NCBI GenBank assembly: GCA_029243605.1
Contig: JAQWRT010000015.1
Span: 99,392 to 163,391 of the forward strand
DNA: 64,000 bases
From: Myxococcota bacterium
GTDB taxonomy: Bacteria; Myxococcota_A; UBA9160; UBA4427
Direction of reading: 5' to 3'
The notes under the pieces: generated by a model
Databases searched by the model: none
What the model was told of the DNA's origin: nothing
The model's input: the letters and a program-made list of their open reading frames with translations, nothing else
Shown here: positions 1,517-64,000 of the stretch, piece after piece
How positions within the stretch are numbered: position 1 is the stretch's first letter
Layout of the letters: every line of letters begins with the position of its first letter
Program-made: the position numbers and the translations under genes

Positions 1517-1558
1517 ACCCCTTGCCAGGCCGACTTCGGCCGAGCGGAGGCTCCACCC

Positions 1559-3504: not shown

Positions 3505-3554
3505 CCCTCGAGCCGCGAACTCGGCGCGCAAAATTTAGTTCACAGGAGAAAAGC

Positions 3555-4670: not shown

Positions 4671-4671
4671 T

Positions 4672-5586
4672 TTGAAGCAGGAGATCGCGCTTCGCTTGCT
4701 TCTGACCCTCGGCGCCATCTTCGCGGTGGCCGGGGCTTGGGTGCTGGGCCAGTGGGCCGTGCGGGGTCGGACAGCTTCCCAATCCCGAATGGGGACGCGC
4801 TTCCTTGTGGAAGTCGGCATCCTGGCCGGAGTCTGGGGCCCGGCTTATTTGGGTGGCGGCTGGCTCTTGGCGGGAGTTCTAGTCCTCGCCTGGCTCTGCA
4901 CGCGGGAACTCTACGCCACCCTGAAGGTCGGCGGGGAGCGTCCGTGGGCCGGGGTGGGGGTCGCCGTGACGCTCGGCGCGATTCTTTTCGTTTACCAGTC
5001 GCCGGATGCCGCCGGCTGGCTCTTTCCCGTGGCTCTCGGGCTCTATGGGGCGCTGCGCTGGATCGTTTCCTCCCGCCAGGCCGCCCCCGACTCGCCCCTG
5101 GCCCGGGTGACCAGCACGGGACTCGGCTTTGTCTACCCCGGCTTGTGCCTCGCCGTCTTTCTTTCTCTTGGGCTGCGGGAAGAGGGCTTCGGCTATGCGA
5201 TCTTCTTCTACGGCCTGGTCGAGGCCAATGACGTCTTCGCCTACCTCGTGGGAAGCGGGATCGGCAAGCGGAAAATTTTTCCGGTGTTGAGTCCCAATAA
5301 AACCCTGGAAGGCGTTGTGGGTGGGCTCTTGGGGACCGTGGCTGTGGGCTTCGCTTTTTCCTTCGCTGTGCCCGATTTTGGCCCGTTGCGCGTCGCGAGC
5401 GCAGCGCTTCTGATCGGTTTGGCAGGGCTCGGGGGTGATCTTTTTGCCTCGGCGCTCAAGCGACGTGCCGGGGTCAAGGACTACGGCAACCTGGTCCCTA
5501 CTCAGGGCGGCGTGCTGGACGTTTACGACGCATTCTTCTTCGTAACCCCGGTCTTTTACGGTTTCCTAGAACTCACCTCGGGTTGA
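4672..5586 (+). CDS. CdsA-family (CTP_transf_1) integral membrane cytidylyltransferase-like protein, divergent signature
   Basis: TTG start 1 nt after the phnW stop. Multi-pass hydrophobic protein. Family region SPNKTLEGVVGG...GDLFASALKRRAGVKDYGNLVPTQGGVLDVYD resembles the CdsA signature, but it has Q for the usual H and V for the usual R (signature recalled from memory). Confidence 0.75.
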   Translation: MKQEIALRLLLTLGAIFAVAGAWVLGQWAVRGRTASQSRMGTRFLVEVGILAGVWGPAYLGGGWLLAGVLVLAWLCTRELYATLKVGGERPWAGVGVAVTLGAILFVYQSPDAAGWLFPVALGLYGALRWIVSSRQAAPDSPLARVTSTGLGFVYPGLCLAVFLSLGLREEGFGYAIFFYGLVEANDVFAYLVGSGIGKRKIFPVLSPNKTLEGVVGGLLGTVAVGFAFSFAVPDFGPLRVASAALLIGLAGLGGDLFASALKRRAGVKDYGNLVPTQGGVLDVYDAFFFVTPVFYGFLELTSG

Positions 5587-5623
5587 TCCGAGGGTGATAG
5601 GCTGGGGGAGGAGGGGTAGCCCC

Positions 5624-6373
5624 GTGCGATACACACTCGCCGACGTGAAGGCGTCCTACGGACCCGAGAAGGCCTGGGCCGAGATGCAGGGTGATCTGCC
5701 CTGCTATCTCATCTATCGCCCGATTTCCTTTTGGGTGGCTTTGCCCTTTCTCTGGTTGGGGATCCCCGTGCTCGTGATGACGAGCTTCTCTCTGGTGATC
5801 GCGCTCAGCCTTCCTGCCATGGCCTATTGGGGGGGAGAGCACGCCTATCTCGGGGTGGCGGGCCTGGGCTTCCTCTATCACGTCATGGACTGTGTGGATG
5901 GCAACATGGCGCGCACCCTGGGCCGCACGAGCCGCCTGGGCGCGATTCTCGACGGGACCATCGATATGAGCTTTTGGTGCCTGCTCTTGCTCTCGCTTGG
6001 ACTCCTTGTGGACGGTCAGGCCGGGGGGTTCTGGGACGGTCACGCCGTCGCGCTCTCCCTGGGGCTCGCAGTGCTCTTGCTCCTCAATCGCCAGACGCGC
6101 GACAATTTCAGCCTGCAAAATCGAGATGCCACGTATTTTCGCAGTGAGATTCCCGAGCGGCTCAGCCTCGGCGATCGCCTCATGATGGCGGTGGTCGGCC
6201 TCGAGTTCGTCTACGTCTTTGCCATAGCCCTGGGCGGGTGGTTCGGAGGGCTGGAGTGGGTTCTGCTCGGCATTGCGATCTACGTCGGCCTGATGTTCCT
6301 CGGGGCCGTCGGGCTCACATGGATTCAGGCGGCTCGTCTGGATCGGGATCCCCCGCCGCAAGATCCTCGTTGA
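5624..6373 (+). CDS. CDP-alcohol phosphatidyltransferase family protein
   Basis: Intact family motif D-x2-D-G-x2-A-R-x8-G-x3-D-x3-D (DCVDGNMARTLGRTSRLGAILDGTID) and several TM segments. I prefer the GTG at 5624, about 7 nt after a GGGGAGGAGGGG run, over the track start at 5594. Confidence 0.8.
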   Translation: MRYTLADVKASYGPEKAWAEMQGDLPCYLIYRPISFWVALPFLWLGIPVLVMTSFSLVIALSLPAMAYWGGEHAYLGVAGLGFLYHVMDCVDGNMARTLGRTSRLGAILDGTIDMSFWCLLLLSLGLLVDGQAGGFWDGHAVALSLGLAVLLLLNRQTRDNFSLQNRDATYFRSEIPERLSLGDRLMMAVVGLEFVYVFAIALGGWFGGLEWVLLGIAIYVGLMFLGAVGLTWIQAARLDRDPPPQDPR

Positions 6374-19759: not shown

Positions 19760-22700
19760 TCACCAGCGCAGGTAGAACTCGGCGGAGATCACGTGGAGGT
19801 CATAACCGCTTCCCGTGTAGTAGTCGTAGTCGAGGCCGACCAGGGGGGTTTCGGCGATACTCATGAGGTAGCCGGTACCGACGAAGAGTTGGTTGTCGTC
19901 GGCCGGGGCACCCTTGGTGACGAATGGGGCGGCCCCGGGCACGTTGTAGAAACTCGCGGCTACGGGTCGGGCGAGGTTCCCGAAATCATGGGTCCAGCCC
20001 GCACGAAATTCGGGCTCGATGCCGAATTCACCGTTCAGGGTGAAGAGGGTGCTGATGCGTGCGCCCAGGGTGGTCTGCCACGAGTCGAAACTCTCGGACC
20101 GGACCGCCAAGGAGAGGTCCCCAGCGCCGTTTTCCTGAAAGGCATCCTGGGTCAGCCGGTTGTACTGGAGGCGAACCATGGGGCGGTAGGCCAGTCGGGT
20201 CGGGTCCCCCAAAAGCACGCCGGCCTCGGCGAGGAAGCCGGCCTCCTGGCCCGATGAACGAGCCCCGGCCCGGCGGTTGATGTCTTCGAAGGCGATTCGC
20301 CGGTCGGTCTCGAAATCGGTATACGCGTAGCGACCCGCAAAGCCGGCGTAGTAGTGATCGCCTTCCCAACTCCCGTAAAGGGCGGCTTGGTAGGTGTTGC
20401 CCTCGGCGCTGAGCCCCCGATTGCCCGTCAGGGAGTAGCGGGTGTAGCCGAAGCCGACGCCGAGTCGCGCCTCCTCGCTCTCGCCCAGGCCGCTATCGAA
20501 GCCCACGGCGATTCCGCCGCTATCGCTCTTGATCGTCGAGGCGTTGACTTCGCCAGCTCGCCGCGAAAAAAAGCCTCCGGCATCGAGCCATCCCCCGGCC
20601 CCTCGGGTCGAGCTTTCTTCGGTCCCCGCCGCTCCGGCAGCGGCCAAGGGTTTGCCGGCTGCTCCCCGGAGTGCCTGCTTTCGGTTCAGGCTGCCCGCGC
20701 GGTAATCGTTTGCGGTAAAGCGCCGGGAGATCGCCTGTCCGAAGGCAGTGGCATTGGCCAGGCGGGGGTTGGTGAAAGCGCCCAGACTTTCGCCGGCTAC
20801 TTGGTTGAGTACACCGGGGACCTGGCTCGCCGTCAGGATATTCAGGCTCTCCTGGATCTCCAGGGCATCGGGTGAGCCCGAGTTGAGGAGTTGGTCAAAG
20901 GCGGGGGCCGTGGCCCTTTGGTTGGGGGTTTGGGCGTAGTCGTCGAGCCGGTTGGCGTTCTGTACAAGGGTGAAGGTCAGCCTTTGGGTGCCCCCATCCC
21001 GGGGTTGTACGGTGAGCGGTCCGATTTCCAGAAACGCAAAGTCGGGCGCCGTTGTGCCAATGCCCTGGGTTCCTCCGTTGAAGTCGCAGAAGTCTGGGGT
21101 GCAGATTTCGAAGGCCTCGATGATTTCATAGGTCTCGATCGAGTCGTAGAGCCCCGGGGAGGGTGTGATGGAGACCACGATATTGTCGAGAAGGACGCGA
21201 TTATTTCCTGCGCTCAGAAGGGAGGCCTGGGCCTGGTCGTTGACGGTTACCGCGAGTTCTGCGGCCGGTTCGAAAATGACTTCGCTCGCCAGGCTTACAC
21301 TGTCCGTGGCTCCGCCCAAGTCGAGAAGGCCGCGATTGGTCAGTTCGCTGCCGAGTTCCAGGGCGCCCGCCGCGTTGACCAGGCTGCCGCCGGCTTCCAC
21401 TATGATATTTGAGGTCGAGGTCAAATCGCCGAGCAGGCGCAGGCTTCCCAGGCTCACCTGGGTTTCGCCGGTGTATTCCTGACCGGCGGCGAGGCTCAAC
21501 GATCCTGATCCGGATTTCACGAAATTGCCCGCGCCGCTCACGATATGGCTGTAGGTCTGCCCGTCGCTGAGCGAAAAATCGACGTTGGCTCCTCCGCTCA
21601 CCTCCACGTGGTCGGGCAGGCTCAAAGTGTCGAGACGCAGGGTTCCCTCCTGGACGCTGGTGCCCCCTTGATAACTGTTCGTGCCGGTCAGGGTGAGCGT
21701 CGAGTCGATTCCTCGCTTGGTCAGTCTGCCCAGGCCCGTGATGGCCCCGGAATGGACCCCATCCTCGGCTTGTTCAAAAAGGACCTCGGTCGTTGATCCG
21801 TCGAGCTCGATGTTGCCGGGAAAGCTCGAGGCGTCGCCCAAAATTCGCCCGGCGGTGACCAGGAGCCCTCCGGTGAACGTGTTCGCTCCCGAGAGTCGGA
21901 GGTCGTTGAGGCCGATCTTCTCGACCTGGCCCGCTCCGCTGATGTTGCCCGAGAAGTCGGGGTCCGCCGTCGCGCCATAGAGTTGCAGGGTGGCGTCTTG
22001 GGCCACCGCGACATCTCCGGTGATGGTGGTGGATTCTCCGTAGAGGATGCCCGCCAGGATTTCGATCCCCTGGTCGACGGCGACGCTTCCCTGGCCGTCG
22101 ACGAATCGGAGGGTGCGCGTGCCGTCCTTGGTGAAGCGCCCCTCGCCGGTGATCTCGCCGATATATGAGAATTGGCTGATGGCGTCATCCTTCCAGGTCA
22201 GGGCGGCGTCCTTCGCCACGGAAATATTCCCCTGGATTCCTTCCCCGTGGCCGCGCAGTTCACCCCCAAGGACCTGGGTGCCTCCGGTGTAGGTGTTGAC
22301 GCCCAGGAGGTCGAGCAGGGTGTCTCCCTCTTTGACCAGGCTGCCCTCGCCGTTGATATCGTCGCCAATCTGGTACTCGAAGCTGTAATTGAAACCGAGT
22401 GTTGCGTCGGCGTCGACCACGAATTGGGAGGAAACATCTTCACTGTCGACTTGGGCGCTACCGAAGATGTCGAGATCGACCAGGGTGGCCTGGCCGGATT
22501 CGACGTGCAGCAATACGAAGTCTGCACCGACGTCTTCCGCGGTGGTGATCCAGAAACTGATCGTTCCCGTGGCATCGAGGGTGACCTGGCGTTCGGTCCC
22601 GGGATCCAGGAGTTGCAGGTCGATTTCGGGCAAGGGGGCGTCTTGGCCGAGAGTGAGGGTGAGGAATTCCAGGTCGTCCGGAATGAACTCGATGATGTTG

Positions 22701-22897
22701 TCGGTATTCGCCCCACCATTGGCCGATAGGATGGCGCTGTCGAGACTCCCAGGGATGTCGCGACCGTTATTGATGACGGTGAATATATCGGGGATGATCA
22801 CAACTTCTTCGGCACGGATCCCGAAAGCGAGGAAAAGCCCGGCGATCACCAGGGGCAGGGCCGTTCGGGACCTGGGTTGAAAACGATCTTTCTGCAT
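19760..22897 (-). CDS. Autotransporter outer-membrane protein with PATR-type passenger repeats
   Basis: Signal peptide (ALPLVIAGLFLAFGIRA). Repeated units LRLSGANTFTGGLLVTAGRILG, LTLTGTNSYQGGTSVQEGTLRL and SLSLAAGQEYTGETQVSLGSLRL. The C-terminal ~270 aa is an alternating-hydrophobic beta-barrel ending AEFYLRW. Confidence 0.85.
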   Translation of the reverse strand: MQKDRFQPRSRTALPLVIAGLFLAFGIRAEEVVIIPDIFTVINNGRDIPGSLDSAILSANGGANTDNIIEFIPDDLEFLTLTLGQDAPLPEIDLQLLDPGTERQVTLDATGTISFWITTAEDVGADFVLLHVESGQATLVDLDIFGSAQVDSEDVSSQFVVDADATLGFNYSFEYQIGDDINGEGSLVKEGDTLLDLLGVNTYTGGTQVLGGELRGHGEGIQGNISVAKDAALTWKDDAISQFSYIGEITGEGRFTKDGTRTLRFVDGQGSVAVDQGIEILAGILYGESTTITGDVAVAQDATLQLYGATADPDFSGNISGAGQVEKIGLNDLRLSGANTFTGGLLVTAGRILGDASSFPGNIELDGSTTEVLFEQAEDGVHSGAITGLGRLTKRGIDSTLTLTGTNSYQGGTSVQEGTLRLDTLSLPDHVEVSGGANVDFSLSDGQTYSHIVSGAGNFVKSGSGSLSLAAGQEYTGETQVSLGSLRLLGDLTSTSNIIVEAGGSLVNAAGALELGSELTNRGLLDLGGATDSVSLASEVIFEPAAELAVTVNDQAQASLLSAGNNRVLLDNIVVSITPSPGLYDSIETYEIIEAFEICTPDFCDFNGGTQGIGTTAPDFAFLEIGPLTVQPRDGGTQRLTFTLVQNANRLDDYAQTPNQRATAPAFDQLLNSGSPDALEIQESLNILTASQVPGVLNQVAGESLGAFTNPRLANATAFGQAISRRFTANDYRAGSLNRKQALRGAAGKPLAAAGAAGTEESSTRGAGGWLDAGGFFSRRAGEVNASTIKSDSGGIAVGFDSGLGESEEARLGVGFGYTRYSLTGNRGLSAEGNTYQAALYGSWEGDHYYAGFAGRYAYTDFETDRRIAFEDINRRAGARSSGQEAGFLAEAGVLLGDPTRLAYRPMVRLQYNRLTQDAFQENGAGDLSLAVRSESFDSWQTTLGARISTLFTLNGEFGIEPEFRAGWTHDFGNLARPVAASFYNVPGAAPFVTKGAPADDNQLFVGTGYLMSIAETPLVGLDYDYYTGSGYDLHVISAEFYLRW

Positions 22898-29828: not shown

Positions 29829-32800
29829 CTAGAAACTCAAGCGGACCCGGCCGGTCACCGCGTTGACCGTGGTGTCCTTCCAGAGGAAGCCGTCGTAGCG
29901 AAGGGTGAAGGTGAGTCGGTCGGCCACCAGGGGCGTCCAGTCGAGTCCGACACCCACTTCGAAGCCCTGCTGGAAGCTCTGGCTTTCGATGCTGAAGGCG
30001 TCGGTGGTCGAATCGAGAAAGCGGGCCTCAAGTCGGTTCTGCTCTTCGCCCAGAGGCTGGCGCCAGCGCAGGGAGAGGTGGGGTCGCCAGACGCCGTCGA
30101 CATTCTCGAGCAGGTCGGTCCAGTAGCCGTTCTTGTGCAGGGCCGTAGTGAGGTCGAACCCAACACGAGCGGTTCCCGTGGAGTCGGTACGGCTCGGCAG
30201 GACTAGGGCTGCGCCGCCACCGCCACTCTCGCTGATCTCGGATTGCAGCAGCGCCGTGTAGTCCAGGGAGAGGGTGGGGCTGATCAGGAACGCGCCGCTT
30301 TCGACGCCATACTCGGCCTCGATACGAATTTCGAGGCGGTCAATCCCGTAGTCCGCCTCGGCGCGGTTGACGAACTCGCCGATGGAGAAATCACGAACCC
30401 GGTGTTGCCAGCTGTGGCCGTAGCTCGTCACGCCCTGGAGGCGAAAATTGCCCGTGGTGTATCCCGCGTAGAGTCCGAGATCCAGGGTCTTGAAGTCGCC
30501 GGGGCCCGCCCCATCCACGTGAATCGAACCGTAGGCGGTGCCCAGGGAAGCGGAGACCACGAGGTTTTCGTCGACCCGGCGATCGACGCCCAGGGCGACG
30601 CCTCCGGCATTATCGCTGTATGATATCTGTCCCGGCCGGCCCTGGTAGTTGCCGAACTGGCCGTAGGATGTGATCCACGGCTCCAGGGGGCGCTCGCGAC
30701 AGAGAGTTCGTGTGCGCGGGTCGGTCACCACCTGACCCGGGGGAGCGATGCAGAAGCGTGGTCGTTCGAGGAGTGCCTGGACGAAGCGGTTGCCGAGTTC
30801 CAGGGTCGCCTGGGTGTGGGCGCCGTAGGCCGCGGGGCTGAGTTGGTCCATGGCATCGAGGTAGCTGTCGAAGCCCAGGATTTCGGTCTGAGAGACGAGA
30901 GCCTGGGTGCCGCTGCTGGCGCCCGGGGCAGAGAGGGCGGTGACGGCTTGGGAGGTGGCCCATTGGTTGTCGGAGTACCCGGTGACGTTCACCGAGAGTG
31001 AGACCTGGTTGGCCGAATAGACCGGAGCGCCAATGACGAAATCGGGGTTTTCGGGCAAGACGATCCGGTCGAACTCGTTGATGCGACCCCCGTCTGCCTG
31101 AAGGAGGATGAACTCTGCGGGCCCGCGAAAGCCTCCGCCGATGATGATTTCGAGGAGGCCATCAGCGAGGGCAGCGCTCCCGGTGGTGGTCAGGAGGGGG
31201 CCGCCCCGGGTCGCCTGGCTGAGAAGAGCTTGCAGGGTGGGCTCGGGGTCGCCGGGTTGGGGTACCAGGGAAGTCGGTGGTGCGTGGCTATAGCTTCCAT
31301 CGATGGTGGTGGGCGCGAGCAGGGCGAGGGTTCCGTTGCGATCCACCACGACATCGCGGTTTTCGGGGCTCTGCCCGGTGAGTTGCCAGCGCCCGGAGTC
31401 GACTCGGAGCGAAGTAAAATTCTCGGCCAGGCCCGAGTCAAATTGCCCCAGAGCACCCCGCTCTCCCGTCAGCTCGAGGGTATTGCTGCCGATCCCTCCA
31501 TCGACGACGGGCATTCCGAGATCGCTGAGTTCCGCCCCGGTGGCCAGCTGGAAACGATCGTCGCCTTCGCCGAGGAGCACGGTGCCCTGAATGAGGCCCG
31601 CGTTAAGAATGACGTCGTTCCCGGGCGAGCCCTGGATCGCGATCCCCCGGCCAGGGACGCCGAGGTCGCTGAGGTCGGCCAGGATCGACGCTCCCGCCCC
31701 ATTCTCGATTCGGCTCTCGCCGCCCGGGAGGGCTTCGCCCATGATGACGAGCGCCCCGGCTGCGGGGTCGGTGCTGCGCAGGACGCCGCCCGGATTTCCG
31801 GATGCCCCCGCCGCATTGCTGAAGCTGGCTTGTTCGGGGTCCGAGTGGGCCCCGATCTCGATGCCGCGGCTTCCGCTTCCGCCGATGCTGATCTCTCCTT
31901 GGTTGACGAAGAGGCTGTCGACGCCGGCGCGGATCGCGACGGCATCGCTGCCCAGGACTTCCAAGCTCCCCGAGTTTTCACCCTCGGCGAGGATTCCGAA
32001 ATCAAAGCCCAGGGCTCCTGCGCCGTTGAGGATCAGGGTTCCGGCGTTGATCGCCCGGCCGCCGCCCTCGACTTGGATGCCGATGACTGCGTCTCCCGTC
32101 ATTTCGAGGGAGGCCCCGAGTTCGTTAATCGTGGTGGTTGCCTGGCCGCCCTGAAGGCCGACGCTGTCGTTCGCATTGAAAACCATGGTGCCCAGGTTGC
32201 CGCCTGGGTTGGCGTTGCTGCCCAGGCGAATGCCGATACTGCCCGGAGCCGACGAGGTGATGGAGCCTTGATTGGTGATCTGGCCGCCGAAGTCGGCCCC
32301 TGCGAGGCCCACTGCGTCGAGGGCCGTGGCCTCCAAAACGATGCGGGCGCCGGGCTGGTTGTCGATGACTGTGTTGCGGCCCCCGGCCAGGCCGATGGTG
32401 CCAGCGCCGCTGAGGGTCAGGTCTCCGGCCTGGGTAATCTGGGAGCCGTTTCCCAGGGAGGCACCCGTGGCTTGATCACCGGAAACCGTGATCGAGCCGG
32501 TGTTCTCGAGGAACACCCCATTCGTCCCGAAAACGCCGGTGGCATTGGAGCCCGAGACCTCGAGGCTACCCGTGTTGAAAACCCCGGAAGAGTCCAGGAC
32601 CGCGATTCCAACGCTGTCGCTGCCAGCCACTTCGATGGTTCCATCATTCTGGCTGCGGGTCGGGCTTCCGACATTGATGCCGAAGGCGCCTGGGCCGGTG
32701 ACGACGATCGAGCCACTGAGCGAATTGACGAAGGGGGCGGCTTCAGACGAGCTCCCATCGCCGCCGAGGATTCCGCTGCTGGCGCCGCCGATCACTTCAA

Positions 32801-33119
32801 TCCGGCCGTTGTTGGTGACGGCGCTGGTATTCTCCACCACGATGCCATCTCCGGGAGCCGTGACCGTGGCGTTCTCCTCGATCACCACGGTGACGGAATC
32901 GACGCCCGTGGGAACCGAATAACCCGCTGGGTTGTTGCCGGAGCAGCTGACCGTGTCCCCGGGCGAAGCGGGGTCCGGTAGACAGGCGGCCGAGAGCGGG
33001 AGGGCGGGGAGGACGAGGACGCCACCCAGCAGAAGGAGAGCCCCTCCTCGGGCCACCCGGCGTCTGGCCCAGCACACGGCTCCATGGGCTCCCTGACGGG
33101 GTTTGCCGCTCCAGCTCAT
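29829..33119 (-). CDS. Autotransporter outer-membrane protein (large Gly/Ser/Thr-rich beta-helical passenger), possibly lipidated
   Basis: Signal peptide ending LPALPLSAAC (lipobox-like). Long repetitive G/S/T/N/V passenger. C-terminal beta-barrel ending GRVRLSF. Confidence 0.8.
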   Translation of the reverse strand: MSWSGKPRQGAHGAVCWARRRVARGGALLLLGGVLVLPALPLSAACLPDPASPGDTVSCSGNNPAGYSVPTGVDSVTVVIEENATVTAPGDGIVVENTSAVTNNGRIEVIGGASSGILGGDGSSSEAAPFVNSLSGSIVVTGPGAFGINVGSPTRSQNDGTIEVAGSDSVGIAVLDSSGVFNTGSLEVSGSNATGVFGTNGVFLENTGSITVSGDQATGASLGNGSQITQAGDLTLSGAGTIGLAGGRNTVIDNQPGARIVLEATALDAVGLAGADFGGQITNQGSITSSAPGSIGIRLGSNANPGGNLGTMVFNANDSVGLQGGQATTTINELGASLEMTGDAVIGIQVEGGGRAINAGTLILNGAGALGFDFGILAEGENSGSLEVLGSDAVAIRAGVDSLFVNQGEISIGGSGSRGIEIGAHSDPEQASFSNAAGASGNPGGVLRSTDPAAGALVIMGEALPGGESRIENGAGASILADLSDLGVPGRGIAIQGSPGNDVILNAGLIQGTVLLGEGDDRFQLATGAELSDLGMPVVDGGIGSNTLELTGERGALGQFDSGLAENFTSLRVDSGRWQLTGQSPENRDVVVDRNGTLALLAPTTIDGSYSHAPPTSLVPQPGDPEPTLQALLSQATRGGPLLTTTGSAALADGLLEIIIGGGFRGPAEFILLQADGGRINEFDRIVLPENPDFVIGAPVYSANQVSLSVNVTGYSDNQWATSQAVTALSAPGASSGTQALVSQTEILGFDSYLDAMDQLSPAAYGAHTQATLELGNRFVQALLERPRFCIAPPGQVVTDPRTRTLCRERPLEPWITSYGQFGNYQGRPGQISYSDNAGGVALGVDRRVDENLVVSASLGTAYGSIHVDGAGPGDFKTLDLGLYAGYTTGNFRLQGVTSYGHSWQHRVRDFSIGEFVNRAEADYGIDRLEIRIEAEYGVESGAFLISPTLSLDYTALLQSEISESGGGGAALVLPSRTDSTGTARVGFDLTTALHKNGYWTDLLENVDGVWRPHLSLRWRQPLGEEQNRLEARFLDSTTDAFSIESQSFQQGFEVGVGLDWTPLVADRLTFTLRYDGFLWKDTTVNAVTGRVRLSF

Positions 33120-54968: not shown

Positions 54969-55119
54969 GGCGGGTTCCTTGAGGCTGCGCGGGTTTTGAG
55001 GGCCCAGTTCTCGACCCGGGGCGAGTCTACCCCAGGCACGGAAATCATCGAGTGCGTCTACCGCCCGAAGGGCGCTAGGCTCAAACGGGATTTGGAGCGC
55101 GGTCGCAGGGGAGGTGGAG

Positions 55120-56535
55120 ATGCAGGGGCATCGAGGCGGACTGGGCGTTTTTCTGATCACCGGACTGCTCATCGGTGGGGTACTGAGTTCAGCGGGGCGA
55201 GCCGCCTCGGATGAGGCCGCCTCGTCCGACGGGGAAACAAGCCCCCAGGTAGCCGGGCTGGCCTTCGTCGACGATTGGACGCGCGAGAATCTCGAGAACC
55301 TGGTGGAACTCTACCGCGAGTTGCACGCCCACCCGGAACTCTCCCTTCAAGAGACGAAGACGGCGGCCCGGGTTGCCGAGGCCTTTGAGCAGGCGGGCTA
55401 CCGGGTGACCTCCGGGGTCGGGGGCACCGGGGTCGTGGGCGTGCTGAAGAACGGCCCCGGGCCGACCCTGATGATTCGGGGCGACATGGATGCCTTGCCC
55501 GTGAGCGAGGAGAGCGGCCTCGAGTACGCAAGTGAGGTCACCGCGCTGCTGCCCGACGGCCGCACGACCGGGGTCATGCACGCCTGCGGGCACGACGTGC
55601 ACACGACGAACCTCGTGGCCAGCGCTCGCCTGTTGGCCGAGGCCCGGGATCTGTGGAGCGGAACCCTGGTGATGGTTGCCCAGCCCGCCGAGGAAATCGG
55701 CCAGGGTGCTCGGGACATGATGGCGGCGGGACTCTTCGAGGATTTCCCCCGGCCCGATTATACCCTGGCCCTGCATGTGGACTCGGACTTGGCCGCGGGC
55801 ACCCTGGGCTTTACGCCGGGTTTCGCCTTCGCCAATGTCGATTCCGTGGACGTGACCTTCTACGGGCGCGGCGGTCACGGCGCACGCCCGCACTCGGCCA
55901 TCGACCCCATCGTTACGGCGGCCTCCTTTGTGAGTTCCGTGCAGACCCTGGTCAGCCGTCGCCTGAATCCTCAGGATCCGGGGGTGGTGACCGTGGGGTC
56001 GATCCATGCGGGCACCAAGCACAACGTGATTCCCAACGAGGCCCGGCTTCAGTTGACGGTGCGCTCGTACAGCGACGAGACCCGGGGGCAACTGCTCGAA
56101 GGGATCGCCCAGATCGCCGCCGATACCTGCCGCGTCTTTCAATGCCCGCGCCCACCCGGGGTGACGGTGCGCGAGGAGTACACCCCGGCGCTCTACAACG
56201 ACCCGGCCTTTACGGCCCGGGCGGTGGCGCTCTTTGGCGAGGTCTTCGGGGCGGAGCAGGTCTTCGAGATGACGCCCACCATGGGGGGCGAGGATTTCGG
56301 CCGCTACGCCCGGGCCCTGGATGTGCCGGGCCTGATGTTTCGAGTCGGCGCCCAGGATCCCGAGCGCTTTGCAGCGAGCCGGGCGCCGGGGGCTGTGCCC
56401 TTGCCCGGGGTCCATTCGAGCGGCTTCGCTCCCGCCGCCGAGCCGACCTTGGATACGGCCATTCGGGCCATGGGATTGCTGGCCCTGGACGTCCTGACGA
56501 GCGGGGCGAAGCCCGGGGATGCGCAGTCGCCCTGA
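55120..56535 (+). CDS. Secreted M20-family amidohydrolase/peptidase (M20D, hippurate-hydrolase-like)
   Basis: GGGGAGG lies 6 nt upstream of the ATG at 55120. Signal peptide LGVFLITGLLIGGVLSSAGRA. Motifs LHAHPELS, IRGDMDALP, MHACGHDVHT. Confidence 0.85.
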   Translation: MQGHRGGLGVFLITGLLIGGVLSSAGRAASDEAASSDGETSPQVAGLAFVDDWTRENLENLVELYRELHAHPELSLQETKTAARVAEAFEQAGYRVTSGVGGTGVVGVLKNGPGPTLMIRGDMDALPVSEESGLEYASEVTALLPDGRTTGVMHACGHDVHTTNLVASARLLAEARDLWSGTLVMVAQPAEEIGQGARDMMAAGLFEDFPRPDYTLALHVDSDLAAGTLGFTPGFAFANVDSVDVTFYGRGGHGARPHSAIDPIVTAASFVSSVQTLVSRRLNPQDPGVVTVGSIHAGTKHNVIPNEARLQLTVRSYSDETRGQLLEGIAQIAADTCRVFQCPRPPGVTVREEYTPALYNDPAFTARAVALFGEVFGAEQVFEMTPTMGGEDFGRYARALDVPGLMFRVGAQDPERFAASRAPGAVPLPGVHSSGFAPAAEPTLDTAIRAMGLLALDVLTSGAKPGDAQSP

Positions 56536-56553
56536 TCCGAGGCGAGGGTAAAT

Positions 56554-56769
56554 TCAGGCCAGCAGGGCCAAGATTTCCTGGTCTTCGGGAAAGCGTCCTG
56601 TGGCCTGCTTGGAGAAGAGCAGGCGGCCGTCGCAGACGACGTCGAAGACGCCCCCGTCGCCCTTGAGGAGTTGGGCTTCGTGGCCGGTGGCCTCGAGGAG
56701 GGCGGCGGCCAGACTGGCCGCCCGGGGTTGGAAATTTCAACGCACGCAGTAGGTAATCGTGATTTCCAT
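56554..56769 (-). CDS. SelW/Rdx-family selenoprotein (71 aa) with in-frame UGA (Sec) at codon 11
   Basis: The ATG at 56769 has GGAG 6 nt upstream. Translation is MEITITYCVR-U-NFQPRAASLAAALLEATGHEAQLLKGDGGVFDVVCDGRLLFSKQATGRFPEDQEILALLA. The CxxU redox motif sits exactly where Rdx proteins carry CxxC/CxxU. Family hallmarks G-x-F-[ED]-V..DG.L..SK...GRFP lie downstream of the TGA (56739-56737), in the same frame, through to the TGA at 56556-56554. Confidence 0.8.
56704..56722 (-). promoter_or_regulatory. Putative bacterial SECIS hairpin
   Basis: The minus-strand RNA reads UGA-AAUUUCCAACCCCG-GGCGGCC-AGUCU-GGCCGCC. That is a 7-bp G/C stem (extendable with flanking G/C) and a 5-nt loop containing GU. 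The loop starts about 21 nt after the UGA, within the spacing expected for bacterial SECIS elements. Confidence 0.65.
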
Positions 56770-56877
56770 GCGGGGCTCCGGGTCCGGGCTTCGGGCCCGG
56801 TTCGGGGGAAGTGTGGCCCAGCCTTCCCCTCCCTGGCAAGGGCGGCGTGGCCGCGATCCGGGGCCTAGACTCGCGGC

Positions 56878-57660
56878 ATGCTCGAGGCCTTCGAAGAAAG
56901 CGAGTTCTGCCACGAGGGCGTGACCCGACGGGTCTTCTATGCGGGCGCCGGCCCCGGCGTCGTGATCATGCACGAGGTTCCGGGCCTCTATCCCGCGATG
57001 GCGGAATTTGCCGAGCGGGTGGTGGCGGCGGGGTTTCGGGTGGCGCTGCCCGAACTCTTTGGCACCACCGGGCGCCCGGTCTCCCCGGGATACGCCTTGG
57101 CCGAGATCACCCGGGCCTGCATCAGCCGGGAGTTCCATGTCCTCGCCTCCCGGGGCTCGAGTCCCATCACCACCTGGCTGCGGGCTCTGTGCCGAGAGTT
57201 TCATGCCGAGTGCGGCGGGCCGGGGGTGGGCGCGATCGGCATGTGCTTGACCGGGAACTTCGCGCTCTCCCTGATGGTGGACCCCTGGGTGATGGCGCCC
57301 GTGCTTTCCCAGCCCTCGCTGCCCTTTCCCCTGGGTGCCGAGCGCCGCCGCGGGCTGCACCTGTCCGACGACGATCTCGAAGTCGTGCGCCGCCGGGCTT
57401 GCGACGAGGGGGTCGGCGTTTTGGGCCTGCGCTTTACCCGGGATCCCATGTCCCCCCCCGAGCGCTTCGAACGTCTGCGTGAAGAACTCGGCGACGGCTT
57501 CGAGGGGATCGAGATCGATTCGGGCCCGGGCAACCCTCATGGCATTGCCCGCAGCGCGCACAGCGTGGTGACGAACGATCTGATCGACGAAGCCGGGCAT
57601 CCGACACGCCAGGCCCTCGACCGGGTGCTGGAATTTTTCGGCGAACGCCTGGGCGGCTAG
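56878..57660 (+). CDS. Dienelactone hydrolase family protein
   Basis: Alpha/beta hydrolase with DLH-type nucleophile region GAIGMCLTGNFA (Cys nucleophile) and the N-terminal pattern GVVIMHEVPGL. Confidence 0.75.
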   Translation: MLEAFEESEFCHEGVTRRVFYAGAGPGVVIMHEVPGLYPAMAEFAERVVAAGFRVALPELFGTTGRPVSPGYALAEITRACISREFHVLASRGSSPITTWLRALCREFHAECGGPGVGAIGMCLTGNFALSLMVDPWVMAPVLSQPSLPFPLGAERRRGLHLSDDDLEVVRRRACDEGVGVLGLRFTRDPMSPPERFERLREELGDGFEGIEIDSGPGNPHGIARSAHSVVTNDLIDEAGHPTRQALDRVLEFFGERLGG

Positions 57661-57669
57661 TCGAGGAAC

Positions 57670-58842
57670 TCAGCGTCGCTCGAAGAGCGCCAGGGTCTCG
57701 ACGTGTTCGCCGTGGGGGAAGAGCGCGTAGGCCTCGAGCCGGGTGAGTTGCATGCGCCCGCCCGCGATCAGCGCGCGCGCCTCTCGCAGGAGGGCGGGGA
57801 GCCCGCAGCTCACATAGGCGAGCCGGGCCGGGGGCGCGTCGGCGAGGGCACCCACGAGTTCGTCGCCGAGGCCGCGCCGAGGCGGGTCGACGATCACGGC
57901 GTCGCAGCTTGCAAGGAGACCGCGAAGTTCGGGGATCCGGGCCGCGTCGCCGGGATGAACCTGGGCCCGGCTGCGCATTTCCGGGGCGCAGCCCGCCAGG
58001 GAGAGGGCTAGGCCGCGCAGGGAGTCCTCGCCGCGCTCGTTGAAATGCACCTCGGCGCCTCGGGCCAGCACGGGCAGCCCCAGGGCGCCGCACCCGGCGT
58101 AGAGATCCGCCACCCGGGGCGCGTTGCCCGGGTCGCTGTCCGGGCCGGGGGAGGCCCCGGCAAGAGCGAAGTCCGCGACGCGCTCGGTCAGGCTGTCGGC
58201 GAGGTCGAGGTTCGCCTGGCCAAAGGCGCCGGGGGGAAAGTGAACCGTCACTCCACCCATGGTTTCGCAGGCCGTTTCGGGGCCGGCGAGCCGGGCCCAC
58301 TTGGGGCCGAGGATGCTGTTCGTGCGCTCGGGCTGGCCGTTCCACCAGAGACTGTGGAGCGAGTCGCCGAGAATTTCGATCAGCCGGGCGGCCGCGGGCT
58401 CGAAGGGCTCGGGGGAACTCGAGTTGCAGATCACCACGACCTGGGCGCGGTTGTGCGCGCGCTCCACCACGACCTGGAGGTAGCGCACGAGCCCGCTGTG
58501 GTGTTCCTCCCGGTAAGGGGGCGTCCCGGTTTCGCGCAGCGCCTGCTTCAGCCCGGCGACGACGCGGTTGATTCGGGGATGGTGGATCACGCAGCGGGGG
58601 ATGTCGACGACACTGTGGCTGCCCGGGGCGAAGAGTCCGATCTTGGGCGAGCGCGCCCGACCGCGCACCGCCAAGCGGGCTCGGCGGCGCCACTCGAGGG
58701 GGGCGCCCTCATGGACCGGGGGCGGGGGCAGGGCGCTCTCGGCCGCCAACTCCTTGAGTTGGGCGAAGGCCCCGGGGTCGATTCCGCCCTGGCCGAGCCG
58801 AGGGCAGCCGGGGCAAGCGGGCCGATGGGAACATTCGATCAA
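57670..58842 (-). CDS. RumA/TrmA-family SAM-dependent RNA (uracil-5-)methyltransferase
   Basis: Only the C-terminal ~390 aa of the 944-aa track ORF looks genuine. It has an N-terminal Cys cluster CSHRPACPGCP, SAM motif DLYAGCGALGLP, DPPRRGL, and a YVSCG nucleophile region. I propose the TTG start at 58842, with AAAGGA 5 nt upstream. The rest of the track ORF is antisense to ygiQ. Confidence 0.7.
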   Translation of the reverse strand: MIECSHRPACPGCPRLGQGGIDPGAFAQLKELAAESALPPPPVHEGAPLEWRRRARLAVRGRARSPKIGLFAPGSHSVVDIPRCVIHHPRINRVVAGLKQALRETGTPPYREEHHSGLVRYLQVVVERAHNRAQVVVICNSSSPEPFEPAAARLIEILGDSLHSLWWNGQPERTNSILGPKWARLAGPETACETMGGVTVHFPPGAFGQANLDLADSLTERVADFALAGASPGPDSDPGNAPRVADLYAGCGALGLPVLARGAEVHFNERGEDSLRGLALSLAGCAPEMRSRAQVHPGDAARIPELRGLLASCDAVIVDPPRRGLGDELVGALADAPPARLAYVSCGLPALLREARALIAGGRMQLTRLEAYALFPHGEHVETLALFERR

Positions 58843-61091: not shown

Positions 61092-61187
61092 GGGCTGTGA
61101 TCCGATGTTATTGGCCTTTCCCCGGCGTGGACTCGCCGGGGGAGGACGGGCTGTCCAGAGAGTTTTTTCTTAGAACGCAGGCCATCG

Positions 61188-64000
61188 ATGCTGGGGACAC
61201 AGGAGGCGCTGAAAATCGGCGAATCAGCGTTGCGTCGGATCCTCTGGCTCTTGGTGATCCCTGGGGTGTTGCTGGCATCGTCCGGTTCGGCCTCGGCCCA
61301 GGTGCTGGATCTTCGGGTCCAGAGTTTCAGCGTCAGTTATAGCCACGACTTTGCCTATCTCTCGGGCTCGGAAAACGTGTCCATGGACATCGTTCTTGAG
61401 ACCAGTGTGAACTGCACCGGCACGGGCACTATTCTTGCCGGAACGATCGACTCGCCGCCCGCTTTCCAGGCCTCGGTTGACTTGGTTGAAGTCAGCCTGG
61501 GAACCGTGGTTGCCAAGTTGCCCATCGCCGCCTTCCCCGTCCCGGCCGCTCATGTCTCCGGCCGACCGAGCGGTTCGTTCCCCGGGATCTGCTTCGCCGG
61601 CTATTCCGCATCCGGCGGTCCCGTTCTGTCCGTCGCCGACCTGACCAGCACCGCGGGCTTTGAGGCCTTCATCGCCACCGCCCGAGCCAGCGGCAATTCT
61701 GTCCAGGCGCGGGTCGAGATCGACAGTACGGCTCTGGTGGCGGAAACCAACGAGACGAATAACGAGTGGGTCGAGCCCACGGTGCTCGACCTCTATCCCC
61801 TGAGTGGGACCCTTTTGTACGGCGCTATTTCGGTTCCTCTGGTTACGGCCACGATCTTCGACGGACTGTGCCCAGCGGGCCAGGCCGCGGCGGTGAATGT
61901 CCAGGGAACATGGCAACCTTCTCCCGGCAATCCATGGACCCCCGTCCCCGTAGCCGTTCCCGCTCTGCAATGCCTAGCGCTGCTCGCGAACGGAAATCAA
62001 TTCGACCTCGAGGCCTTGGGTGACACGTCGGTGGGGACCGCGAGCGGAAGCCTGGCGGGCTTTGCGGTCGACGTTTCCAACGTGGTTCTCGGCGCGACCG
62101 GGGCGAGGCCGGGTCAGCTCTCCCTTGAACTGCCCGAAGGCCACACCCATCACGCCGACGACGGCAGCGGCCGCCCCGAGGCTCGGGGGAGGCGGCAGAT
62201 CACCTTCGCGACGGTGTCCCCGGCGGCGACAAGCGATTTCGATCTGCTCCAAGCCGGCGGGTTGGCTGGATTCCTCCACGCCCGTTCGAACCCCCTGTCC
62301 TTCGAACTCGTCTCCTTGAGCCTGACGGCGACCTCCCTCGACGGAAAGTTCGCCGGCGCGGTTTATCCCTACAACGTTGACTTCTCGCCGCGTGATCCGC
62401 GAATTCGGACGGGCTTGCGGAGCAATGACCAGCGAATGCGCCTCCCCAGCGCGGGAACCTTTCTCTTCTCCCTCTTGCCCTCAGGGCTTCAGACCAGCGT
62501 GGCTTTCGATCCGGGGGTTGGGGGGCTCCACTTTCCCGCACTCAGGTCGTTTTGGAATAATTACTCCCTGAATATCATCGACGGCAGGTTGGAAGAGAAC
62601 GGGGTCCTCTCCCCTGAAATCTACGGCTTTACTCAGTCCTCGGATTGCCCGGGTTGCGACGAAGACAAGTACGGCGTCGGTTTCAATCTTGCCGCTTCGC
62701 ATACGGGCACGGACTGGGATGGGGCCAGTGTGGCCCGGGTGTCGGCCCTGGGAGCGGACCCGGAATGGGGCCCCCTGGATCCGAATTCGGGGTTGCAGAT
62801 CTACACCCGTTCGGGCGATATGAATCATCCTGCGGTGGTCGCAGTCCCCGGTTTTCACGCCCAGGCAACCGGGGGAGGGGGCGACGTTTCCGTGGCCGAG
62901 TATCTGCTCGGCATGCGGGAGGCGGCCTGGACCGGCGCCATCGTCAAGTTCGGGGCACACCACCTCCTTCCGAGCACCGAGAGCCGAAGCGGGAACTTCT
63001 TCATGGCCGGGGTCTCGGTGGGCCCCGATCTCTACAGCTCGGGCCCTCTCAACCTGCCCATGGTGGGAAGCCTCGGGAGTGACTTGGGCCAACGGGGGAT
63101 TCCGACGGATCCCGCGCCCGGTCTCATCATTGGTTTCGGCGGAATCCTCGCGCCCGACTATCACTATGTCGCCAACAACTCGGGGGCGAAATATGTGGTG
63201 CGCCCGGCGGGGGTGACGGGGGTCTTCAACTCCGATGTGGCTCCCTCACCGACGGTCTACGGCTATACGCTCCCCCTGACCCGCTTCGGAATTCGTCAGG
63301 TCGTGAACGAGATCGACCCCTATAGCTGGATCGACGGCAAGGTCGTGGTGCCCGGGAAGGGCGATTTCGAGATCGTCTTCCAATCCCTCGCACTCGAATG
63401 CAGCGGCGATATCGGCGAGGGGCTCGTGGTCCGGGAAACCTGTGGAGACGGGGTGGGCGCCGATGTCAACTGCAACGAGACCCTGAGCGCTTGGAATACC
63501 CGCATGGAGGAGATTCTCGGCATCGCCTTCGAGGGAAGCGGCAACCAGTGTCTGGCCTCGAACCGAGAACTGGAAGTGGCCAGTGTCGTGGACATCAAGG
63601 CCCTGGAGAGTTGGGTGGGTCTGACGGCGACCTGGTCTTCGGCGGGGGATCCGTCGAATGCATCCTTGACCTCGACCACGGATCAGGTTTGGGACAGTCC
63701 CGACGGAGGAGTCACCCCTGGCTTCTCAACCGCGATGTCCGAGGATGTGGTCCTGGATCTTGGGGGTTATTACATTTTCAAGGGCGATGTGGGTGTTCCC
63801 TTCTGGGAAGCCCTGGACGCCGAGATGCGTTTTCAGAACGACGCGGGTGCGGGCGGCGAATTCGTCCGAGCCCAGTCGATTGCCTACTCCGCTACGGGCG
63901 GCTGCGTGTTTCCCGACCACCTGGGCATGAGTTCGGCCGATCTGTCCCAGGAATTGGAAGTCACTTGCAACGTGGACGCCGACTACACCTGGGGGGGGAC
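61188..64000 (+). CDS. Very large secreted protein of unknown function (CARDB-like N-terminal module); 3' partial, runs off the window
   Basis: Hand translation from the ATG at 61188 gives 937 codons with no stop to nt 64000. The ORF is absent from the track because it lacks a stop. The in-frame upstream stop is at 61098. Signal peptide ALRRILWLLVIPGVLLASSGSASA|QV. The ETNETNNEW motif is typical of CARDB-type adhesion domains. The codon third-position G/C bias looks like coding sequence. All track ORFs in 61.1-63.9 kb are short and out of frame or antisense. Confidence 0.8.
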   Translation, partial: MLGTQEALKIGESALRRILWLLVIPGVLLASSGSASAQVLDLRVQSFSVSYSHDFAYLSGSENVSMDIVLETSVNCTGTGTILAGTIDSPPAFQASVDLVEVSLGTVVAKLPIAAFPVPAAHVSGRPSGSFPGICFAGYSASGGPVLSVADLTSTAGFEAFIATARASGNSVQARVEIDSTALVAETNETNNEWVEPTVLDLYPLSGTLLYGAISVPLVTATIFDGLCPAGQAAAVNVQGTWQPSPGNPWTPVPVAVPALQCLALLANGNQFDLEALGDTSVGTASGSLAGFAVDVSNVVLGATGARPGQLSLELPEGHTHHADDGSGRPEARGRRQITFATVSPAATSDFDLLQAGGLAGFLHARSNPLSFELVSLSLTATSLDGKFAGAVYPYNVDFSPRDPRIRTGLRSNDQRMRLPSAGTFLFSLLPSGLQTSVAFDPGVGGLHFPALRSFWNNYSLNIIDGRLEENGVLSPEIYGFTQSSDCPGCDEDKYGVGFNLAASHTGTDWDGASVARVSALGADPEWGPLDPNSGLQIYTRSGDMNHPAVVAVPGFHAQATGGGGDVSVAEYLLGMREAAWTGAIVKFGAHHLLPSTESRSGNFFMAGVSVGPDLYSSGPLNLPMVGSLGSDLGQRGIPTDPAPGLIIGFGGILAPDYHYVANNSGAKYVVRPAGVTGVFNSDVAPSPTVYGYTLPLTRFGIRQVVNEIDPYSWIDGKVVVPGKGDFEIVFQSLALECSGDIGEGLVVRETCGDGVGADVNCNETLSAWNTRMEEILGIAFEGSGNQCLASNRELEVASVVDIKALESWVGLTATWSSAGDPSNASLTSTTDQVWDSPDGGVTPGFSTAMSEDVVLDLGGYYIFKGDVGVPFWEALDAEMRFQNDAGAGGEFVRAQSIAYSATGGCVFPDHLGMSSADLSQELEVTCNVDADYTWGG

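What the first reader, a model, noticed from the sequence alone, without database searches (positions are those of the whole stretch)
56554..56769. Hidden selenoprotein: SelW/Rdx-like gene read through an in-frame UGA with a downstream SECIS-like hairpin
The ORF track shows only a 10-codon stub (..MEITITYCVR*) at the end of an antisense ORF. Reading through the TGA at 56739-56737 in the same frame gives a 71-aa protein: MEITITYCVR-U-NFQPRAASL...GDGGVFDVVCDGRLLFSKQATGRFPEDQEILALLA. This places U in the CxxU position of the Rdx-fold redox motif. It also recovers the family's downstream hallmarks (G.FDV..DG.L.FSK...GRFP). A G/C-rich hairpin (GGCGGCC-AGUCU-GGCCGCC, 56722-56704) begins about 14 nt after the UGA. 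Its GU-containing loop sits about 21 nt away, consistent with bacterial SECIS geometry. The gene has its own GGAG-N6-ATG and fits exactly between two flanking genes. It implies that the organism has Sec-decoding machinery, and standard gene callers would miss it.
Basis: partly seen in the sequence, partly recalled or inferred. Interest (0 to 1): 0.75.

Follow-up and report, generated by a model that had tools for sequence, protein, structure and literature searches.

The report
Unannotated SelW-like bacterial selenoprotein gene
A 71-codon gene that gene callers miss encodes a small redox protein with selenocysteine at an in-frame UGA followed by the usual bacterial recoding hairpin; it is real, but it belongs to the commonest known selenoprotein family in marine bacteria.

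Summary
On the minus strand, 56769-56554 encodes a 71-residue Rdx/SelW-like protein (Pfam PF10262, E=4e-19). The 60 residues after the in-frame TGA (56739-56737) alone score E=8e-12, and no start codon could translate them separately. The TGA occupies the second position of the CxxC/CxxU redox motif. Of the 80 closest homologues in named genomes, 79 have TGA at this codon and one has TGC. The hairpin at 56722-56704 meets all four published bacterial SECIS constraints. It recurs at the same register in 76 distinct sequences, with an invariant loop G and compensatory changes, including at synonymous wobble positions (53/55 paired, 38.8 expected). A Cys homologue with the same peptide loses exactly those wobble pairs. 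TGA is the commonest ordinary stop among the window's long, confidently called ORFs, so UGA is not reassigned. Gene callers left this gene uncalled on all four fetched contigs that span it. However, SelW-like CxxU proteins are the most abundant known prokaryotic selenoprotein family in marine metagenomes and have curated NCBIfam models. This is a new member of a known kind. Untested: whether selA, selB, selC and selD are in the genome. None is in the window.

The parts
56776..56779 (-). Shine-Dalgarno-like GGAG, 6 nt upstream of the ATG
   Evidence: Read directly from the sequence.
56554..56769 (-). Coding sequence of the 71-residue Rdx/SelW-like selenoprotein (MEITITYCVR-U-NFQPRAASLAA...GRFPEDQEILALLA), stop codon included
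   Evidence: Translation. Pfam PF10262 E=4e-19, and the post-UGA part alone E=8.4e-12. TIGR02174 scores 55.6 bits against a cutoff of 34.2. PDB Rdx-fold homologues 2OKA, 2OBK, 2FA8, 2P0G and others.
56746..56748 (-). TGC codon for Cys8, the first residue of the CxxU redox motif
   Evidence: It aligns with the first Cys of CxxC in homologues.
56737..56739 (-). In-frame UGA, the predicted selenocysteine codon (residue 11)
   Evidence: The same codon is TGA in 79 of 80 homologous loci and TGC in one. It aligns with the second Cys of CxxC in Cys homologues.
56704..56722 (-). Bacterial SECIS hairpin: 8-bp stem (GGCGGCCA/UGGCCGCC) with apical loop GUC at 56714-56712. It lies inside codons 16-22 (R-A-A-S-L-A-A).
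   Evidence: Fold at -16.9 kcal/mol. It meets the four bSECIS constraints quoted in PMC13188914. The same register is kept in 76 sequences, G26 is invariant, 85% of cells pair against under 48% in slid controls, and 0 of 500 shuffles reach the observed values for four of the five measures (percentage paired, cells changed on both sides, further pair types, covariation score). Wobble-wobble pairs covary.
56554..56556 (-). True stop codon (TGA) of the gene
   Evidence: No bSECIS-like hairpin follows it, because the gene ends 18 nt from the convergent M20 gene.

Best explanation
The element is a functional gene for a short (71-aa) SelW-like, Rdx-family selenoprotein.

Proposed mechanism:
1. Ribosomes start at the ATG at 56769 and translate MEITITYCVR.
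2. At the UGA (56739-56737), the hairpin 14 nt downstream (56722-56704, loop G-U-C) recruits SelB-GTP carrying Sec-tRNA(Sec), as in the standard bacterial pathway.
3. Selenocysteine is inserted and translation continues for 60 more codons.
4. The product has a thioredoxin-like Rdx fold with a Cys8-x-x-Sec11 redox centre at the start of helix 1, and it most likely acts as a small thiol/selenol oxidoreductase.

Shown here: family membership of both halves, the U/C correspondence, near-universal TGA in relatives, and a conserved, covarying hairpin that fits the bSECIS model.

Inferred: actual Sec insertion, SelB binding, the redox activity and its substrate, and the presence of selA/B/C/D elsewhere in the genome.
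For: (1) Protein family. Pfam Rdx scores 69 bits (cutoff 22.6), and the 60 post-UGA residues alone score 45.6 bits. TIGR02174 CXXU_selWTH scores 55.6 bits (cutoff 34.2), and NF041051 'SelT/SelW/SelH family (seleno)protein' scores 84.8. PDB Rdx proteins match with E down to 1e-9, and in the three alignments shown their CxxC aligns to C8...U11.

(2) No separate translation. No in-frame ATG, GTG or TTG lies between codons 12 and 66, so the conserved part can only be made by reading through the UGA.

(3) Conservation of the codon. 79 of 80 homologous loci from many phyla have TGA at this exact codon with the frame kept open. One has TGC.

(4) Cys homologues (P0003, P0008, P0017, P0032, P0062, L074) have TGC or TGT there.

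(5) Hairpin against the bSECIS model of PMC13188914. The loop is 3 nt (5 nt if the A-U pair is left open), the stem is 8 bp, the loop reads A-G-U-C-U (matching N1-G-[G|U]-N-N2), the spacing is 21-22 nt, and the energy is -16.9 kcal/mol.

(6) Comparative support. Among 76 distinct sequences the loop G is invariant and the next base is U (68) or G (8). 85% of cells pair against 25-48% in slid registers, and 0 of 500 shuffles reach the observed percentage paired, cells changed on both sides, further pair types or covariation score.

(7) Synonymous test. The third positions of Ala17 and Ala21 pair in 53 of 55 sequences against 38.8 expected, with 0 of 20,000 shuffles reaching that, and include G-C flips and U-A. 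Cys homologue P0003 has the same PRAASLAA peptide but loses all three wobble-wobble pairs, and L074 keeps only 2 of 8 pairs.

(8) TGA is the most frequent ordinary stop among the window's long, confidently called ORFs (21 of 36), so UGA is not globally reassigned.

(9) SelW-like CxxU proteins are a documented bacterial selenoprotein family (PMC1088965, PMC2398784, PMC9312934).
Against: - No selA, selB, selD or tRNA-Sec lies in the 64-kb window, and the rest of the genome could not be examined.
- No second selenoprotein candidate was found in the window.
- The hairpin alone is not statistically unusual in this G+C-rich context.
- Five of its eight pairs are forced by the codons of the peptide AASLAA.
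- Within-lineage variation is uninformative: one Q64E difference inside a ~3-kb near-identical block.
- Rfam gives no hit, which shows only that no Rfam family reached threshold here.
- No experimental evidence exists for Sec insertion or for the function.
Confidence: 0.9

Rival explanations
1. The gene is a pseudogene: a Cys codon (TGC or TGT) mutated to TGA, so the gene is dead and the downstream frame is a relic.
For: A single base change turns TGC or TGT into TGA. No Sec machinery was seen in the window.
Against: 79 of 80 homologues from many phyla have the same TGA. The post-UGA frame is intact and scores 45.6 bits for Rdx. The downstream hairpin is maintained by compensatory and synonymous changes. 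The TGA, frame and hairpin are also intact in the four other metagenome contigs that span the gene.
Confidence: 0.02
2. UGA is reassigned in this organism (code 4 or 25, Trp or Gly), so the protein carries Trp or Gly rather than Sec.
For: Many database homologues are stored with W at this position.
Against: Those W residues are TGA codons called under an alternative code on short contigs (the loci do not translate to the stored proteins under code 11). In the window, TGA ends 21 of 36 long, confidently called ORFs. The position aligns with a catalytic Cys.
Confidence: 0.01
3. The hairpin is only a by-product of the codons for the Ala-rich helix (R-A-A-S-L-A-A) and is not a recoding signal. Read-through, if it occurs at all, uses another mechanism.
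For: Five of the 8 pairs follow automatically from GCN GCN AGY CUN GCN GCN. Cys homologues still show 5-7 of 8 pairs in this register. The single-sequence z-score is only -1.9.
Against: The wobble-wobble pairs, which the peptide does not constrain, pair in 74/76 (21-33) and 76/76 (24-30) sequences, well above shuffled expectation, and include G-C/C-G flips. Lineages with different peptides (ADSLSA, ALRARA) keep a hairpin at the same register with a G-U/G loop. Cys homologue P0003, with an identical peptide, loses all three wobble pairs. The loop G is invariant.
Confidence: 0.03
4. The gene and its SECIS are intact, but the lineage has lost or never had Sec decoding. The UGA would then be read at low level by near-cognate tRNAs or by Cys mis-charged onto tRNA-Sec, or the gene is a recent arrival on the ~3-kb recombination block.
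For: The sel genes were not observed. The gene sits in a 3.2-kb block that is almost identical among otherwise 4-14% divergent contigs, which fits recent transfer. The gene neighbourhood is not conserved in relatives.
Against: The literature reports that selenoprotein genes are lost or converted to Cys once the Sec trait is lost (PMC1794560). The SECIS here is a fully canonical member of the family consensus.
Confidence: 0.04

Closest known systems
Bacterial SelW-like (SELENOW-like) selenoproteins, Pfam PF10262 Rdx / TIGR02174 CXXU_selWTH (Zhang, Gladyshev and co-workers; PMC1088965, PMC2398784, PMC9312934)
   Same: Same domain, same CxxU motif position, a UGA-encoded Sec with a bSECIS immediately downstream, a marine metagenome origin, and almost no Cys forms among close relatives (79/80 here; PMC1794560 notes the same tendency).
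   Different: Nothing essential differs. It belongs to the compact ~70-aa form (the NF041051 profile is 70 positions long), and it scores 84.8, just under that equivalog model's cutoff of 88. The best genome match is only 66% identical (an Acidobacteriota MAG), so it is a new sequence from an unidentified lineage.
Cys-containing bacterial Rdx proteins with solved structures (2OKA, 2OBK, 2FA8 Atu0228, 2P0G, 2OJL, 3DEX)
   Same: Homologous over residues 2-66 (E from 1e-9 to 5e-6). The CxxC motif aligns with C8...U11 in the three alignments shown, and the G-G-x-F and G-x-F-P motifs are shared.
   Different: Those proteins are about 103-108 aa, carry Cys rather than Sec, and read W-x-R/K where this clade has F-S-K. 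They have no UGA and no SECIS.
E. coli fdhF/fdnG-type bacterial SECIS and the bSECISearch consensus model
   Same: A stem-loop directly 3' of the UGA and inside the ORF. The small apical loop starts with G-U, the UGA-to-loop spacing is 21-22 nt (allowed range 16-37), and the energy is below -7.5 kcal/mol.
   Different: The primary sequence is unrelated to fdhF, and no bulged U was examined. Many relatives have a conserved mismatch at pair 22-32 (22 of 76), whereas the window's copy is fully paired.
Eukaryotic selenoprotein W / SelT / SelH / MIEN1 (Rdx12)
   Same: The same Rdx fold family and the same CxxU or CxxC motif (2LJK MIEN1 hit).
   Different: Eukaryotic members use a 3'-UTR SECIS with SBP2 and eEFSec. 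Here the SECIS is intragenic, as in bacteria.

Membership tests
Rdx / SelW-like family (PF10262, TIGR02174) | Sequence scores above the curated family thresholds | tested here: met
   PF10262 scores 69 bits against 22.6, and the post-UGA part 45.6 bits. TIGR02174 scores 55.6 against 34.2. The narrower equivalog NF041051 scores 84.8 against 88, just below (scored with U replaced by C).
Rdx / SelW-like family (PF10262, TIGR02174) | CxxC/CxxU redox motif directly after the first beta strand, with Sec in the second position | tested here: met
   C8-V-R-U11. It aligns with CxxC in Cys homologues and in the displayed alignments to PDB chains 2OKA, 2OBK and 2FA8. 79 of 80 relatives are CxxU.
Rdx / SelW-like family (PF10262, TIGR02174) | Thioredoxin-like Rdx fold | not tested
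   Inferred only from sequence homology to solved Rdx structures.
Rdx / SelW-like family (PF10262, TIGR02174) | Thiol/selenol oxidoreductase activity | not testable with these tools
   Needs biochemistry. The function of bacterial members is described as unclear in PMC1088965.
Bacterial SECIS (bSECIS consensus model, as quoted in PMC13188914) | Apical loop of 3-9 nt on an upper stem of 4-16 bp | tested here: met
   GUC loop (or AGUCU) on an 8-bp (or 7-bp) stem.
Bacterial SECIS (bSECIS consensus model, as quoted in PMC13188914) | G in the first two loop positions, with pattern N1-G-[G|U]-N-N2 | tested here: met
   A-G-U-C-U in the window. G26 is invariant and position 27 is U (68) or G (8) in 76 sequences.
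Bacterial SECIS (bSECIS consensus model, as quoted in PMC13188914) | 16-37 nt between the UGA and the apical loop | tested here: met
   21 nt to AGUCU, or 22 nt to GUC.
Bacterial SECIS (bSECIS consensus model, as quoted in PMC13188914) | Minimum free energy of -7.5 kcal/mol or lower | tested here: met
   -16.9 kcal/mol for the 45-nt segment, and -15.3 for the bare hairpin.
Bacterial SECIS (bSECIS consensus model, as quoted in PMC13188914) | Structure conserved by compensatory change among Sec-containing homologues and relaxed in Cys homologues | tested here: met
   Covariation score 0.326 against 0.145 in shuffles (0 of 500 reach it), and slid controls reach at most 0.143. Cys homologues average 5.2 of 8 pairs against 6.8 of 8, with the wobble pairs lost in P0003 and L074, but only 6 were examined.
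Bacterial SECIS (bSECIS consensus model, as quoted in PMC13188914) | Binding by SelB and SECIS-dependent Sec insertion | not testable with these tools
   Requires a binding assay or a reporter assay.
Sec-decoding trait of the host genome | Presence of selA, selB, selC (tRNA-Sec) and selD | tested here: inconclusive
   None is in the 64-kb window: no tRNAs and no sel domains among the called genes. The rest of the genome is not available, and the species is not among the representative genomes (best hit 66% identity).

The most novel reading that the evidence does not exclude
The sel genes could not be examined. It therefore remains possible that this lineage decodes the UGA without the canonical SelA/SelB/SelC/SelD set, for example by inserting Cys at a SECIS-directed UGA or through a divergent recoding factor. 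It is also possible that the gene has just arrived on the ~3-kb recombination block in a host that cannot decode Sec.
Probability: 0.03. Interest if true: 0.6.

Novelty: new member of a known kind. Interest (0 to 1): 0.2.

Why it matters
The practical value lies in annotation. The gene is absent from the gene calls on all four fetched contigs that span it. Its relatives in public protein sets are mostly stored either as N-terminally truncated fragments that start after the UGA, or with Trp at the Sec position. Marking it correctly flags the organism as a probable selenium user and adds one sequence to a family whose bacterial function is still unknown. It does not open a new question, because SelW-like CxxU proteins and their SECIS elements have been catalogued since 2004-2008.

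Tried and rejected
- The word-indexed protein search with the Cys-substituted protein found nothing.
It was run with the 60 post-UGA residues instead.
- The 24-sequence alignment was too diverse for the locus search, so a 6-sequence alignment was used.
- Rfam gave no hit at gathering thresholds and only chance-level hits locally.
- Microdiversity as a test of selection failed. The gene is 99.7% identical across contigs, but so is the whole 55000-58250 block, so this is uninformative.
- The search for a second selenoprotein in the window was run twice. The first filter missed even the known gene. The revised filter recovered it plus two false candidates at 61098 and 43015, which are ordinary stops upstream of gene starts.
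- tRNA-Sec was not found near the Rdx genes of 60 related loci.
- The neighbourhood (M20, DLH, RlmD-like, radical SAM and others) is not conserved in the 80 related loci, so context gives no clue to function.
- No sigma-70-like promoter, and no terminator for this gene, was found in 56300-57000.
- Global UGA reassignment and the pseudogene reading were considered and rejected.

Full report
**1. What is in the sequence**

Reading the minus strand gives GGAG (56779-56776), six bases, then ATG (56769). The frame continues MEITITYCVR, TGA (56739-56737), then 60 further sense codons (NFQPRAASLAA...GRFPEDQEILALLA) and a terminal TGA (56556-56554).

The mechanical ORF list shows only the 10-codon stub, at the end of a 287-aa ORF that runs antisense to the neighbouring DLH gene. 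The gene lies 18 nt from the stop of the convergent M20 peptidase gene (55114-56535) and 108 nt from the start of the divergent dienelactone-hydrolase gene (56878-57660).

The only in-frame ATG, GTG or TTG codons are codons 1, 9 and 67. The conserved part after the UGA therefore cannot be translated on its own.

**2. The protein**

| Test | Result |
|---|---|
| Pfam PF10262 Rdx, U replaced by C | E=4e-19, 69 bits (cutoff 22.6) |
| Pfam PF10262, 60 post-UGA residues alone | E=8.4e-12, 45.6 bits |
| NCBIfam TIGR02174 CXXU_selWTH | 55.6 bits (cutoff 34.2) |
| NCBIfam NF041051 'SelT/SelW/SelH family (seleno)protein' | 84.8 bits (cutoff 88) |
| Solved Rdx structures (2OKA, 2OBK, 2FA8, 2LJK, 2OJL, 2P0G, 3DEX) | E from 1e-9 to 5e-6 |

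In the three PDB alignments shown residue by residue (2OKA, 2OBK, 2FA8), the CxxC motif lies on C8...U11.

**3. Homologues**

An exhaustive HMMER search with the post-UGA part found 393 proteins. They fall into three groups:
- Full-length CxxC proteins.
- Full-length proteins stored as 'CxxW'.
- Fragments of 45-64 aa that begin just after the Sec position.

The 'W' is a TGA that was translated under another genetic code. This was checked on P0005, where the codons are TGC...TGA.

A scan of one genome per species returned 573 confirmed relatives. Of the best 80, 79 carry TGA at exactly this codon with the frame open behind it, and one (a Pseudolabrys MAG) carries TGC. They come from Acidobacteriota, Eisenbacteria, Planctomycetota, Myxococcota, Alphaproteobacteria, Desulfobulbia and other groups. 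The closest, an Acidobacteriota MAG, is only 66% identical, so the window's own species is not among the representative genomes.

**4. The hairpin**

In the window the hairpin has 8 bp (GGCGGCCA/UGGCCGCC) with a GUC loop and folds at -16.9 kcal/mol. On its own it is not exceptional for this composition (z = -1.9).

The published bSECIS model (quoted from PMC13188914) requires four things, and the window's hairpin meets all of them:
- A 3-9 nt loop on a 4-16 bp stem.
- G in the first two loop positions, with pattern N1-G-[G|U]-N-N2 (the window has A-G-U-C-U).
- 16-37 nt between the UGA and the loop (the window has 21-22 nt).
- A minimum free energy of -7.5 kcal/mol or lower.

A codon-anchored, gap-free alignment of UGA+45 nt from 76 distinct Sec-type genes (A3) gives the following:
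- The first loop base (G26) is invariant, and the next base is U (68) or G (8).
- 85% of cells pair in the proposed register, against 25-48% when the partner is slid by 1-3 columns.
- 0 of 500 shuffles reach the observed values for four of the five measures: percentage paired, cells changed on both sides, further pair types and the covariation score. The fifth, the number of pairs with a change on both sides, is not distinctive (422 of 500).
- Pair 21-33 is CG:59 GC:9 UA:3 UG:3, pair 23-31 is CG:52 UA:16 UG:6 AU:2, and pair 24-30 is CG:72 GC:3 AU:1.

The stem lies in the codons for R-A-A-S-L-A-A, so five of its pairs are forced by the peptide. Pairs 18-36, 21-33 and 24-30 join third codon positions and are free to vary.
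- In the 55 sequences with Ala at both codons 17 and 21, the two third positions pair in 53 of 55 against 38.8 expected. None of 20,000 shuffles reached that.
- Lineages with other peptides (ADSLSA, ALRARA) keep a hairpin at the same place.

Six Cys-type genes served as a control:
- P0003 has the identical PRAASLAA peptide. It keeps only the five forced pairs and loses all three wobble pairs.
- L074 keeps 2 of 8 pairs.
- P0017 keeps 7 of 8 and may be a recent Sec-to-Cys convert. Such remnants are described in PMC1794560.

The control set is small.

**5. Rival readings**

- Global reassignment of UGA is excluded, because TGA ends 21 of 36 long, confidently called ORFs in the window.
- A pseudogene is very unlikely, given the 79/80 TGA conservation, the intact frame and the maintained hairpin.
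- The idea that the hairpin is a by-product of the peptide is contradicted by the wobble covariation.

**6. What could not be shown**

- The window has no tRNA gene. None of its called genes is selA, selB or selD.
- No second TGA-plus-SECIS candidate is present in the window.
The lineage is known only from metagenome contigs.
- Sec decoding by this organism is therefore inferred from the gene, not demonstrated.

**7. Known or new**

[quoted passage not shown] The 2022 catalogue lists them under pfam10262 with motif CxxU (PMC9312934). PMC1794560 notes that the family has few Cys homologues in Sec-using organisms, which matches the 79/80 found here.

The finding is therefore a correct rediscovery: a new, unannotated member of a well-known kind. 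All four fetched contigs that span this locus have an uncalled ~340-bp gap here. Selenoprotein-aware NCBIfam models for the family do exist.

**8. Verdict**

The mechanism is standard bacterial SelB/SECIS recoding producing a small CxxU redox protein (confidence about 0.9). Novelty is low and interest is about 0.2.

Noticed in passing
L092:268-492 and L093:58-279 (outside the window): Two Rdx homologues from unrelated marine assemblies (one from TARA) have TGA at both motif positions (TGA-GGA-ATG-TGA, i.e. U-G-M-U), followed by the same hairpin. The first UGA would lie 30-31 nt from the loop (9 nt further than the 21-22 nt of the second UGA), still inside the 16-37 nt range, so one SECIS might serve both codons. 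The 2022 catalogue (PMC9312934) lists only CxxU for Rdx.
   Followed up: partly
public protein sets (P0002, P0004, P0007, P0009, P0014; P0005, P0010, P0012, P0021 and others): Relatives of this gene are systematically mis-stored, either as 45-64-aa fragments starting after the UGA or with Trp at the Sec position because TGA was read under an alternative code.
   Followed up: partly
window 55000-58250: A block of about 3.2 kb (M20 peptidase, Rdx, DLH and the start of the RlmD-like gene) is virtually identical among contigs L001-L004. Outside it, those contigs differ from the window by 4-14%. This suggests recent recombination or a gene-specific sweep.
   Followed up: partly
window 56784-56800: A perfect 6-bp palindrome, CCGGGC-TTCGG-GCCCGG, lies in the 108-nt divergent intergenic region between the Rdx and DLH genes. 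It could be an operator or a leader hairpin. It surfaced only as a chance-level Rfam hit to SorX.
   Followed up: no
window 2-6373: A phosphonate-type cluster: a PEP mutase fused to an NTP-transferase domain, a TPP-dependent decarboxylase, a class-V aminotransferase, a cytidylyltransferase and a CDP-alcohol phosphatidyltransferase. This suggests synthesis of a 2-aminoethylphosphonate lipid or glycan.
   Followed up: no
window 19760-22897 (-) and 29829-33119 (-): Two large autotransporters (1045 and 1096 aa), one with PATR repeats, flank a CoA-transferase / acyl-CoA synthetase / SDR gene group.
   Followed up: no
window 61188-63998 (+), continuing in L001:12341-18004: A very large ORF (1887 aa in L001) has no Pfam or NCBIfam match at all. 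A strong hairpin, CUUUCCCCGGCG-UGGACU-CGCCGGGGGAGG, lies just upstream at about 61125.
   Followed up: no
window 57670-58842 (-): An RlmD/RumA-like 23S rRNA (uracil-C5) methyltransferase is hidden inside a spurious 944-aa ORF. Pfam found nothing when given the long ORF, but NCBIfam recognised the trimmed 390-aa version.
   Followed up: partly
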